This document shows, one piece after another, positions 52,314-56,724 of a stretch of DNA of 64,000 nt (within the stretch, counting starts at the first letter, position 1; the number at the start of each line of letters is the position of its first letter). A program made the translations under genes and the position numbers. Source of the DNA: Eledone cirrhosa (Eukaryota); the NCBI GenBank assembly GCA_964016885.1, contig OZ024752.1, positions 26,102,001 to 26,166,000 on the forward strand. The letters are read 5' to 3'. The notes beneath the pieces are model-generated. The model worked only from the letters and a program-made list of their open reading frames with translations. It did not search any database and had not been told where the DNA came from.

Positions 52314-52686
52314 ATAAAAACAAATAACGAAACGAAATTAAATTTCGTTTCGCTTCTAACTCACTTTTGTATGACTGACGCTTAAACAATTAAGTTAAAG
52401 TGTACATCTACATATGTATACGGAAGTATTAGTATGCATATAAATACACACATGTATACATATGTACATGTACTCAGCTTTTCACTAGACACTTTACAGT
52501 GAGTGTCAGCTAGTCTGTATGTAACCACACAGGCGGACCGGGTTTTAGAGTCATACGAGTTTTCAAGGAAACACATTTCCTCTATTCTCCAGAGGGCCAG
52601 ACAGGAATATTGGACTAGTTTCGATGTTATTACATCTCATCAGCAATATTTACCCATCTTCCGGCTTCTCTGGAGAATTGTAAAAG
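52314..52686 (-). mobile_element. HHR retrozyme-like family F, minus copy (HHR 52606-52650)
   Basis: Circular permutation of 56211-56663. Confidence 0.85.
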
Positions 52687-55600
52687 ACGAACTGCATTGC
52701 CAAGAGGCTATGATGTTTAGACACATTTAAATTTCAAAATCAAACCTGTTCCGTAGATAAGTTTAAAACTTTTCTTTTGCAATATATATACAAATGTGTT
52801 GGTATCTGTGTTTCATCACATACATATTAGTTTATTTATATATATATATATATATATATACATACAGGCACACATATATATATGTACGTATCAGTTTAGC
52901 GAATATTTATTATAACATTCGTGCCGTACTAAGAGTGAGAAATAAAATTTCGTTTCATTCTATTCCAACTTATCGTTTTCGGTGCGCCTGGCCGACTGAA
53001 CTCATTCGATATGCAAATTAGGCTGCTCAGCCGTTAATTTTCATAAGAAACGTATATACTTTCGAACGTTCAACCATCTGGCAGAAGGGTATACAGTGCT
53101 GACGATAGCTAAGAAGCTTGAAAATAGTACATCGTTCCTCTGTCAGTGTTGAACAAGAAGGTGACGTGGTTGCCTTAACACCGTACGGCATAAAGCAGTC
53201 TGTCCGTTTGTTTACAAACGAACAAAGCGAATGTTATAATAAATATTCGCTAAACTGATACGTACATATATATATGTGTGCCTGTATGTGTATATATATA
53301 TATATATATATATATATATATATATATATATATATATATATACATGCTACTGTACGTCTGTATACATATATGTATGTACGTATACATACATACTTACATT
53401 TAAGTAAGTGCCGTACTAAGAGTGAGAAATGAAATTTCTTTTCATTCTATTCCAACTTATATATATATATATATATATATATATATATATATATGCATAT
53501 ATATATATACATATATACAGTATATATATATATATATATATATATATATATATATATATATATATATATATATACATATATACAGTATATATATATATAT
53601 ACATACATATATACTGTATATATATATATATACATACATATATACTGTATATATATATATATATACATATATATAGTATATATATATATATATATATATA
53701 TATATATATATATATACATATATATATAGTATATATATATATACATATATATAGTATATATATATATATATACATATATACAGTATATATATATATATAT
53801 ATACATATATACAGTATATATATATATATATATACATATATACAGTATATACAGTATATATATATATATATATATGTGTGTATATATATATATATATATA
53901 TATATATATATATATATGTATATGTATATATATATATATATATGCATATATATATATATGCATATATATATATATATACATATATACAGTATATATATAT
54001 ATATATATATATATATATATATATATATATATATATACATATATATATATATGTATATATATATATATATATATATATATATATATATATATATATATAT
54101 ATATATACATATATATATATATGTATATATATATATATATATATATACATATATATATATATGTATATATATATATATATATATATACATATATATATAT
54201 ATGTATATATATACATATATATATATATATATATACATATATATATATGTATATATATATATATATATATATATATATATATATATATATATATATATAT
54301 ATACATATATATATATGTATATATATACATATATATACATATATATATATATATATACATATATATACATATATATACATATATATATATATATATATAT
54401 ACATATATTATGTATATATACACATATATATATATATATACCTATATATATATATATATATATATATATATATATATATATATATATATACATATATATA
54501 TACACACACACACACACATATATATATATATATATATATATATATATATATATATATATATATATATATATATATATCAGTACGTGTATGAGCGTATCAG
54601 TGTAAAGCAAGAATTTCAATATTGCACGTTTGGTTCAACAAACAAAACTGGAGAATCAATTAACCAATTTAATTTTAAATCATTCATATTCTGTCTAACG
54701 ATGTTTTGTATCATGAATGCACACGTGTGTATGTATATATATATGTGTGTGTGTGTGTGTGTGTGTGTGTGTGTGTGGGTGTGTGTGTGGTGTGTGTGTG
54801 TGTGCGTGTGTGTGTATTTATGTATGACATATATATTTACATACGTCCATATATATATATATATTTTTTTTTTAAGTAAACAGAGAACAAAAAAAAACGT
54901 GTAAGCGAAGAGATAGTACAAATGTTATTATTATTATACATATATATATATATGTATACACATATATATAGTTATATACATCTATATACTTATACAAATA
55001 CATATATATATATATATGCCTTATATAAATACATATATATATATATATCTTGTATATTCAATTATATTATATATATGTGTGTATATATATATATATATAC
55101 ATATATATATATATACATATATATATATATATATATATATATGTAATCATATATGCATGTATATATACGTATATATACGTATATATACGTATATATATAT
55201 ATATATATATATATATATATATATATATATATACACACATATACATAATCATATATGCATGTATATACACGTATATATATATATATATATATATATATAT
55301 ATATATATATATATATATATATATATATATATATATATATACATATACATAATCATATATGCATGTATATACACGTATATATATATATATATATTATACA
55401 TAATTATATATGCTTCTAGAAATACGTATATATACGTATATATATATATACGGATATATATATATATATATATATATATATATATATATATATATATATA
55501 TATATATATATATATATATATATATATACATACATATACATACATAAATTTATATATATATGCTTATATACATGCATATAGAAATAATATATATATATAT

Positions 55601-56214
55601 ATATATATATATATATATATATATATATATATATATATATATATATATATATATACATATTAGTACATACACATATTTATATATATATTTATAAATATAT
55701 TTATATATTTAAGTTGGCAGTGATAGATGAAATTATGAAGAGAGGTTTCCTTTGCAATGATATGAAGATAGAAAAGAACTGAACATGGCCGACATTCTAA
55801 GATAAGCATATTTTAACAGCCTATACTAGAAACAAAAATATCATCAAATATAGTTGAAGAAATTTATTTGTTCCTCACTTATTATATTGGGAAACAAGGT
55901 GACGTGCATTAACATACATGTGTATATACATGTGGATATATATATATATATGCGTGTGTGTGTGTGTATATATATATATATATATATATATATATATATA
56001 TATATATATATATATATATATATATATATATATATCGTATATATATATATATATATATTTATATAATTGTTTCTACTTTTTGGCACAAGGCCAGCAATTA
56101 TTCCAGGGTATTACAGGTACTTTATTTTATCGACACCATAAGAATGAAAGGCAAAGTTAACCTCGTCGGGATTTGAACTCACATCATAAAGGGCCGTAAC
56201 TCTTTGCTGCAAAG
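52683..56214 (+). repeat. ~3.5-kb direct duplication of ~46407-51888, lacking the 47399-49241 and 49576-50197 inserts
   Basis: Same order of unique blocks: family H end, family A, CAGTACGTGTATGAGCG block, AAGTTGGCAGTGATAG block, SINE. Confidence 0.88.
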
Positions 56215-56303
56215 TGAGTTAGAAGCGAAACGAAATTTAATTTCGTTTCGTTATTTGTTTTTATCGTTTCCGCTGAACCGGTGCGTACAATGACTCACGT
56301 TCT

Positions 56304-56350
56304 ATGCAAATTAGTCTACCCACTACTAATTTTCATAGAAAAAGCATATA
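56304..56350 (+). promoter_or_regulatory. Candidate snRNA-type promoter module (family F)
   Basis: ATGCAAAT at 56304, TAATTTTCATA at 56327, CATATA at 56345; matches family A spacing. Confidence 0.4.
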
Positions 56351-56396
56351 ACGATATGTGCTTTTACAATTCTCCAGAGAAGCCGGAAGATGGGTA

Positions 56397-56441
56397 AATA
56401 TTGCTGATGAGATGTAATAACATCGAAACTAGTCCAATATT
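56397..56441 (+). ncRNA. Minimal type I hammerhead (family F)
   Basis: AATATTG-CTGATGA-GATGTAATAACATC-GAAA-CTAG-TC-CAATATT, enclosed by ATTCTCCAGAG/CTCTGGAGAAT. Confidence 0.92.
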
Positions 56442-56724
56442 CCTGTCTGGCCCTCTGGAGAATAGAGGAAATGTGTTTCCTTGAAAACTCGTATGACTCT
56501 AAAACCCGGTCCGCCTGTGTGGTTACATACAGACTAGCTGACACTCACTGTAAAGTGTCTAGTGAAAAGCTGAGTACATGTACATATGTATACATGTGTG
56601 TATTTATATGCATACTAATACTTCCGTATACATATGTAGATGTACACTTTAACTTAATTGTTTATATATATATATATATATGTATACATATAAAATATAT
56701 AGAATATAATATATATATATGTAT

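What the first reader, a model, noticed from the sequence alone, without database searches (positions are those of the whole stretch)
52314..56663. 3.5-kb local duplication sandwiched between two outward-facing copies of one retrozyme
Seen: family F minus copy (52314-52686) and plus copy (56211-56663) are circular permutations with 3' ends facing out into (TA)n. Their 5' ends join directly, through 3-4-nt (A)AAG microhomologies, to the two ends of a copy of nearby sequence (46407-51888). Inference: one insertion event in which two target-primed cDNAs were bridged by copying neighbouring DNA or RNA, i.e. retrozyme/PLE-driven segmental duplication.
Basis: partly seen in the sequence, partly recalled or inferred. 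Interest (0 to 1): 0.8.

Follow-up and report, generated by a model that had tools for sequence, protein, structure and literature searches.

The report
Retrozyme arms enclosing a local duplication
A small ribozyme-carrying jumping element sits here as its usual two back-to-back halves, but with a 3.5-kb copy of neighbouring DNA between them; this likely arose when the two half-made DNA copies were joined through nearby DNA, which would mean such elements can occasionally duplicate kilobases of host DNA.

Summary
The structure is in the assembly. Two arms of a young 469-bp hammerhead retrozyme (F) face outward into (TA)n and enclose a 3,528-bp direct copy of DNA lying 0.4-5.9 kb upstream. Outward arms are the norm for F (113 of 162 fetched loci). 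All 98 pairs with two canonical ends combine one end near monomer position 54 with one near 454, as here, so the arms likely belong to one Penelope-type insertion; this scan noted that two-arm rule before on other DNA of this genome. Unusual is the bridge: no other pair is more than 51 bp apart. Corrections: the right junction has no perfect microhomology; the copy lacks two young insertions present in the source and differs at 9 of 1,211 bp, 7 of 8 polarised changes being new in the copy, while the arms carry none. Best reading: two target-primed cDNAs joined by error-prone DNA-templated synthesis, or by copying another allele. Main rival: later breakage and repair at the centre of an ordinary two-armed insertion. 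Reads neither confirmed nor refuted it. Closest precedent: L1 templated insertions (usually under 250 bp). One event, no gene seen in the copy.

The parts
52297..52313 (.). Left half of the (TA)n target; 52314-52316 (ATA) is shared with the F 3' end
52314..52686 (-). Left F arm, monomer 151-469/1-54, 3' end at the '54' site; hammerhead core at 52643, predicted cut after 52613
   Evidence: 373/373 exact to the tandem monomer; motif scan
52314..52382 (-). 69-nt 'tail' between the two 3'-end sites (monomer 455-54), with two predicted stem-loops
   Evidence: end mapping at 162 loci; fold z -3.0 for a 96-nt stretch that contains it
52683..52686 (+). Junction 1: perfect AAAG microhomology between the F arm 5' end and source 46407-46410
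52683..56210 (+). Bridge: direct copy of 46407-51884 without the two source-only insertions; 9 substitutions in 1,211 non-microsatellite bp and one extra A at 52765
52872..53279 (+). Copy of an older 452-bp hammerhead-family element carried inside the bridge (core at 53099); holds 6 of the 9 substitutions
56211..56214 (+). Junction 2: blunt by exact match; AAG overlap after one C/A mismatch against source 51885-51888
56211..56664 (+). Right F arm, monomer 1-454, 3' end at the '454' site; hammerhead core at 56404, predicted cut after 56434
   Evidence: 454/454 exact; identical copies on many contigs
56665..56681 (.). Right half of the (TA)n target
46407..51884 (+). Source of the bridge, ending 429 bp before the insertion site
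47399..49240 (+). Source-only young 591-bp tandem array in a TA tract, absent from the copy
   Evidence: many near-identical copies elsewhere in G000
49577..50195 (.). Source-only palindromic insertion with a one-sided extension, between TA tracts, absent from the copy

Best explanation
Two outward-facing arms of one young hammerhead retrozyme enclose a 3.5-kb copy of nearby DNA, likely because a Penelope-type enzyme primed a cDNA from each end of one break in (TA)n and the two cDNAs were then likely joined through a DNA-templated copy of upstream sequence instead of directly. Shown: the arms, their complementary ends, the two junctions and the local source. Inferred: (1) a Penelope-like protein acting in trans cut the TA tract; (2) each 3' end copied F RNA from its own start site (54 or 454); (3) the left cDNA end annealed by AAAG at 46407 on the sister chromatid or the homologue and was extended to about 51884; (4) this strand met the right cDNA by an imperfect AAG overlap, as in synthesis-dependent strand annealing or microhomology-mediated joining. 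The copy's extra changes likely come from error-prone synthesis, or from a template allele that differed from the assembled source and lacked its two young insertions; these two cannot be separated here.
For: Arms exact to copies on many contigs. 98 of 98 two-armed pairs with both ends canonical are 54+454, none same-type, and the window has 54+454. Direct arm-arm joins at other loci overlap by at least 1 base in 70 of 116 and carry short fillers in 35 of 116 (BLAST-edge estimates), several fillers being repeated patches of F. At single-armed loci the F 5' end is joined to an inverted copy of its own flank at L082, L124, L136 and L221 (25-38 bp), so host DNA is copied at this join. L056 has a 1,082-bp inverted copy of the neighbouring element at the F 5' end (99.4%). 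7 of 8 polarised substitutions are new in the copy (P = 0.07; one rests on a single paralogue), as are the extra A and two A>T changes in repeated motifs. Zero changes in 827 bp of arms has P = 0.047 if they had aged like each duplicate. Precedent: both-strand extension and two start sites for a PLE in vitro (PMC11167929); L1 insertions with genomic templated segments (10.1101/2024.08.27.596794; PMC11702581).
Against: One case: 0 of 116 other pairs have more than 51 bp between arms. No read or contig among those listed bridged junction 2, in runs of at most two samples that repeats swamped (inconclusive); junction 1 is untested by reads. No empty allele was found in the assembly. Junction 2 is not a clean microhomology. 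One substitution (46743) and two whole insertions are new in the source, which needs either time after the event or another template allele. In L056 two of six differences are new in the plain copy rather than the inverted one, and its template is a multi-copy element. No autonomous partner sharing F's tail was found among 30 GIY-YIG loci and the L056 element. Later repair of an inverted centre would give the same sequence.
Confidence: 0.58

Rival explanations
1. Two steps at one site: an ordinary two-armed F insertion formed first; its inverted centre later broke (hairpin or cruciform) and host repair filled the gap by microhomology-mediated copying of upstream DNA. The retrozyme made the fragile site but not the duplication.
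For: Gives the same final sequence. Two-armed F loci are near-palindromes. Local tandem duplications of 5-18 kb that include F are not rare here (five twin stretches among those fetched).
Against: The arms have no private change, so the second event must have followed closely. Flank-templated joins at single-armed loci (L124, L136) begin at the free TA end, which points to copying during insertion (inference).
Confidence: 0.2
2. No templated copying: on another haplotype the two arms were primed at two different TA tracts about 6.6 kb apart, bracketing a single copy of the segment; the tandem arrangement then came from unequal exchange in TA, or from the assembler joining two haplotypes.
For: Explains allele-like differences between copy and source (0.74%, two presence/absence insertions). 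No read support obtained. Several fetched loci lie in 5-18-kb tandem twins that may be haplotype duplicates.
Against: Needs a join inside a TA run of about 20 bp that has distinct sequence on its outer side; needs two rare events; predicts symmetric divergence, whereas 7 of 8 polarised changes are in the copy; the window has no N gap.
Confidence: 0.12
3. RNA bridge: the reverse transcriptase switched from F RNA to a local transcript of this region and back or onto the other cDNA.
For: Template switching between RNAs is reported for L1 (PMC11702581, section 7). L220 shows an F arm joined by a 3-nt overlap to the 3' end of another repeat family. PLEs captured intron-containing host DNA between pLTRs in Adineta (PMC3846280, section 9).
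Against: The same enzyme made 827 bp of arms with no error but the bridge differs at 0.74% (P = 0.007 for zero changes at 0.6%), unless the transcript came from another allele. No predicted hammerhead cut site at either end of the copy, and one lies inside it on the + strand. The missing blocks end in TA, not GT-AG. No A-to-G excess.
Confidence: 0.07
4. Two independent single-armed F insertions happened to land at the two ends of a pre-existing duplicate.
For: 49 of 162 fetched loci show no second arm by BLAST; 8 have a second F piece within the same 9.9-kb stretch.
Against: Needs both to sit exactly on the breakpoints, tail-out, with complementary ends, both exact to the current master; 0 of those 8 are tail-out.
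Confidence: 0.03

Closest known systems
Templated insertions at L1 integration sites (10.1101/2024.08.27.596794, passages read; PMC11702581, passages and section 7 read)
   Same: [quoted passage not shown]
   Different: L1 cases were 22 of 3,598 insertions, typically under 250 bp and within 15 bp of the site, somatic or in cultured cells. Here 3.5 kb, taken 0.4-5.9 kb away, between two full arms of a non-coding ribozyme element, in a genome assembly. Their supplementary figures (4d; S9, S10) were not seen and may hold longer cases.
Inverted-pLTR and 'tail' structure of EN+ Penelope-like elements (PMC8557442, PMC3846280, PMC11167929; passages read)
   Same: 5'-to-5' inverted copies, an extension at only one end, two RT start sites, AT-rich or (TA)n targets, minimal type I hammerhead.
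   Different: F has no ORF; the tail is 69 nt rather than 30-40 nt; in the papers the inverted copy is immediately adjacent, here kilobases of host DNA lie at the inversion point.
Host-DNA capture by Penelope elements in Adineta vaga (PMC3846280, section 9 read)
   Same: Host sequence framed by PLE terminal repeats as one insertion, including non-coding captures.
   Different: There the captured NRPS gene lies between two direct pLTRs with a target-site duplication and moved to a new place; here the capture lies at the inverted join, comes from the immediate neighbourhood, and no TSD can be read in (TA)n.
Metazoan non-LTR retrozymes (PMC7229834, passages read; 10.64898/2026.07.22.740005, first fifth and passages read)
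   Same: Dispersed tandem arrays of a short non-coding monomer with one type I hammerhead; proposed to be PLE-mobilised.
   Different: Monomer 469 bp, at the upper edge of the reported 150-450 bp. The word searches in these two papers gave no description of inverted arms or of host duplications at insertions.

Membership tests
Metazoan non-LTR retrozyme (element F) | Type I hammerhead in each monomer | tested here: met
   Core CUGAUGA/GAAA/GUC with 7-bp helix I and 4-bp helix II; Rfam HH9 E 7.8e-6 but 31.8 bits, under the 52-bit gathering score; helix III is minimal
Metazoan non-LTR retrozyme (element F) | Short non-coding monomer in dispersed head-to-tail arrays | tested here: met
   469-bp period, arrays on many contigs; 1,446 exact hammerhead cores
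Metazoan non-LTR retrozyme (element F) | Self-cleavage and circular RNA in vivo | not testable with these tools
The monomeric fold does not show the hammerhead as the minimum-energy structure
Penelope-like-element-type insertion | 5'-truncated inverted copy joined head to head | tested here: met
   113 of 162 fetched loci; non-random sample chosen by best hits and end motifs, mostly on C1-C3
Penelope-like-element-type insertion | Tail at one end only (two RT start sites) | tested here: met
   98 of 98 canonical pairs are 54+454; tail 69 nt, longer than the 30-40 bp in PMC8557442
Penelope-like-element-type insertion | AT-rich or (TA)n target | tested here: met
   Outer ends in (TA)n here and at most loci
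Penelope-like-element-type insertion | An autonomous RT + GIY-YIG partner sharing the 3' cis signal | tested here: inconclusive
   150 GIY-YIG matches scored in G000; none of 30 fetched loci nor the L056 element shares F's tail beyond a 79% hit at L180 that looks like a neighbouring retrozyme
Retrotransposition-associated templated insertion | Inserted segment is a copy of DNA near the site, joined to the element's 5' end | tested here: met
Retrotransposition-associated templated insertion | Microhomology at the joins | tested here: inconclusive
   4 nt perfect at junction 1; imperfect at junction 2
Retrotransposition-associated templated insertion | Arose together with the insertion (empty allele lacks all of it; no intermediate allele) | not testable with these tools
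   No empty allele in the assembly; reads inconclusive; no related genomes held
Target-site duplication or duplication-like retrotransposon bridge | Element lies between the two copies of the duplicated DNA | tested here: not met
   The arms bracket the second copy; 429 bp of unduplicated DNA separate source and insertion

The most novel reading that the evidence does not exclude
Penelope-driven retrozyme insertion leaves two separately extended DNA ends that can invade nearby chromatin and write kilobase segmental duplications with a burst of new mutations; in repeat-rich animal genomes with many thousands of such insertions this would be an unrecognised, recurrent source of local duplication, and the bridged structure would rule out fold-back self-priming as the origin of inverted PLE arms.
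Probability: 0.3. Interest if true: 0.72.

Novelty: new variant of a known kind. Interest (0 to 1): 0.5.

Why it matters
How Penelope-like elements make their inverted insertions is stated as open in PMC8557442, and PMC3846280 proposed self-priming at the inverted junction. An insertion whose two arms keep the family's complementary ends yet are separated by 3.5 kb of host DNA with two junctions of its own is hard to make by one fold-back and fits two independently primed ends. It also suggests that a non-coding ribozyme repeat can duplicate kilobases of its neighbourhood, far beyond the sub-250-bp templates typical of L1. The limits: one event, unvalidated by reads, rare among F loci, and no gene was seen in the duplicated DNA.

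Tried and rejected
Rfam at gathering score found nothing in the window; the E-value scan of 33-58 kb listed only microsatellite-driven miRNA hits among its top 150. No alternate haplotig with the empty site was found. Giant target-site duplication rejected: the arms bracket the copy instead of lying between copies. Template from another member of the 452-bp family rejected: the local source is the closest of 40 scored. ADAR-edited RNA template not supported by the substitution spectrum. Ribozyme-defined RNA ends rejected. Candidates dropped as further bridged loci: L187 (inverted repeat ends about 110 bp short of F), L081, L062, L084, L144 (91-96% matches, probably repeat families), L220 (3' end of another repeat family). 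For seven single-armed loci the next 10 kb held no partner arm. No F-matching autonomous element found. Pfam gave no family for four RT-like ORFs. Paper searches for a PLE or retrozyme precedent of this structure gave none; subscription papers and supplements were not covered.

Full report
Observation. The window is G000:C12:26102001-26166000, a 3.0-Gb animal assembly with no N in the window. Element F is a 469-bp monomer found in head-to-tail arrays on many contigs, with 1,446 exact copies of its hammerhead core. The core has the type I layout with a minimal helix III; Rfam HH9 matches at 31.8 bits, E 7.8e-6, under the curated 52 bits. The left arm 52314-52686 (-) matches the tandem monomer 373/373 (positions 151-469, 1-54) and the right arm 56211-56664 (+) 454/454 (positions 1-454); both 3' ends run into (TA)n. 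Between them, 52683-56210 is a collinear direct copy of 46407-51884. A single-copy piece has only the source as near-identical match, and the repeat-family piece is nearer to the local source than to any other of 40 scored candidates.

Junction 1 has a perfect AAAG overlap. At junction 2 the exact source match stops at 51884 and F begins at once; AAG overlaps only after a C/A mismatch. The copy (3,528 bp) lacks two blocks of the source (5,478 bp): a three-unit 591-bp array (47399-49240), whose family has many near-identical copies elsewhere, and a palindromic insertion (about 49577-50195); both sit in TA tracts. Outside microsatellites the copy differs at 9 of 1,211 bp, plus one extra A.

What is ordinary. 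I fetched 9.9-kb stretches around F loci chosen by best BLAST hits and by end or core motifs, mostly on C1-C3, so the sample is not random. After dropping the window, five twins inside larger local duplications and ten neighbour stretches without F, 162 remain. 113 show a minus arm followed by a plus arm (116 pairs). In all 98 pairs where both outer ends are canonical, one ends near monomer position 54 and the other near 454; none has two ends of one type; 15 pairs have one non-canonical end and 3 run off the stretch. The window's arms are such a 54/454 pair. This matches the inverted copy and one-sided tail known for Penelope-like elements (PMC8557442, PMC3846280; passages read) and the in vitro finding that a PLE protein cuts and extends both strands from two RNA start sites (PMC11167929; passages). 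I had this reading before consulting earlier scan notes; several of them report the same rule for other retrozyme families of this genome.

What is unusual. The largest gap between arms in the other 116 pairs is 51 bp. Eight stretches hold a second F piece more than 200 bp away and none is in tail-out order. So the bridge is rare and is unlikely to be two chance insertions. Bridges longer than about 7 kb would have been missed at most single-armed loci; for seven of them the next 10 kb held no partner arm. Smaller signs of host-DNA copying at the F 5' join exist among the 49 loci without a BLAST-visible second arm: inverted flank copies of 25-38 bp at L082, L124, L136 and L221, and at L056 a 1,082-bp inverted copy, 99.4% identical, of the element next to the insertion. 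L056 is weaker because its template belongs to a multi-copy family.

Age and fidelity. The arms carry no change in 827 bp against copies on other contigs (the reference monomer was picked by identity to this locus, but for example L041 matches it over 4,467 bp). Polarised with paralogues, 7 of 8 substitutions are new in the copy and 1 in the source (two-sided P = 0.07; 51412 rests on one paralogue; the ninth, in low-complexity DNA, was left out). The extra A and two A>T changes in repeated motifs also look new in the copy. Six of the nine lie within 252 bp, 260-510 bp from junction 1. Zero changes in the arms has P = 0.047 at 0.37% and 0.007 at 0.6%. In L056 four of six differences are new in the inverted copy and two adjacent ones in the plain copy. 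These numbers suggest, without proving, that the bridge was made less faithfully than the arms or from another allele. The two source-only insertions need either a short time after the event or a template allele without them; skipping by jumps between TA tracts cannot be excluded.

Mechanism. Best supported (0.58): one PLE-type insertion primed a cDNA from each side of a break in (TA)n; the left cDNA annealed by AAAG at 46407 on the sister or homologue, was extended about 3.5 kb or more, and joined the right cDNA by an imperfect overlap. The arms, ends, junctions and source are shown; the enzyme, the order of steps and the template strand are inferred. Main rival (0.20): an ordinary two-armed insertion whose inverted centre later broke and was repaired from upstream DNA. 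Others: arms primed at two distant TA tracts on another haplotype followed by unequal exchange or a haplotype join in the assembly (0.12); an RNA bridge (0.07), for which no predicted ribozyme cut lies at the copy ends, the missing blocks are not intron-like and no A-to-G excess is seen; two independent insertions (0.03).

Reads. Six runs were listed. Junction 1 is untested. At junction 2 none of the listed records of X1-X4 bridged the join, but both sides are high-copy repeats, only the longest records are shown and the runs are at most two samples, so this is inconclusive. No empty allele was found in the assembly.

Comparison with what is known. [quoted passage not shown] Penelope elements captured host DNA between direct pLTRs in Adineta vaga (PMC3846280, section 9). 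The retrozyme papers (PMC7229834, passages; 10.64898/2026.07.22.740005, first fifth and passages) gave no account of inverted arms or host duplication in the passages seen. Searches found no report of a kilobase local copy at the inverted join of a PLE or retrozyme; supplements were not seen and may hold longer L1 cases. Scan look-ups for an enclosed duplication returned none. That F is mobilised by a PLE is inferred; no partner sharing its tail was found among 30 GIY-YIG loci.

Verdict. A real feature of the assembly and a new variant of known kinds: PLE-type two-armed insertion plus a templated insertion of unusual size and distance. It is one unvalidated event; the open frames listed in the copy lie in its TA-rich tracts. 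Its value is mechanistic: it argues for two separately primed ends and gives a concrete genome-wide and population test. Interest 0.5.

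Noticed in passing
window 39622-41719 (+): Two overlapping frames (329 and 375 aa) with a YRDD motif that resemble a Penelope-like reverse transcriptase (label recalled; Pfam gave no family); a similar element lies at L056:5862-9200.
   Followed up: partly
window 45690-46558, 45183-45598, 46593-47156, 44137-45086, 49577-50195: At least four other repeat families (513, 452, 310 bp and a palindromic one) show the same minus-then-plus arms in TA tracts; the 513- and 452-bp ones have hammerhead-like cores at 46042 (-) and 46820 (+).
   Followed up: partly
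L056:3854-7009 (G000:C4 near 124.2 Mb): Single F arm whose 5' end is joined to a 1,082-bp inverted copy of the Penelope-like element beyond its TA tail; possible second kilobase templated event.
   Followed up: partly
L220:2946-3050: F arm joined by a 3-nt overlap to the last 30 bp of another repeat family that then runs into TA: possibly a two-armed insertion made from two different RNAs.
   Followed up: no
L042/L043, L078/L132, L099, L217/L218, L224/L225; L109/L110: F loci repeated with their flanks 5-18 kb apart (480 kb for L109/L110); real local duplications or haplotype duplicates in the assembly.
   Followed up: partly
L187:850-3905: 930-bp inverted repeat (about 99%) with a 1.25-kb spacer that holds a GIY-YIG-like frame fragment (label recalled), ending about 110 bp before an F arm.
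   Followed up: partly
L033, L034, L037, L038, L044, L080 junctions: Short fillers made of repeated patches of adjacent sequence at F 5' joins, resembling polymerase-theta-type templated insertions (resemblance recalled).
   Followed up: partly
window 51458-51567: This piece of the duplicated single-copy DNA has an 85% paralogue about 115 kb downstream (G000:C12:26272154-26272268), hinting at an older local duplication.
   Followed up: no
G000:C1:95.62-95.63 Mb, L097, L126, L212: F arrays longer than 5-12 kb, far above the typical 0.2-2 kb arms.
   Followed up: no
window 52119-52270: Another high-copy repeat with a hammerhead-like core at 52184 (+) ends just left of the TA tract that F entered.
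   Followed up: partly
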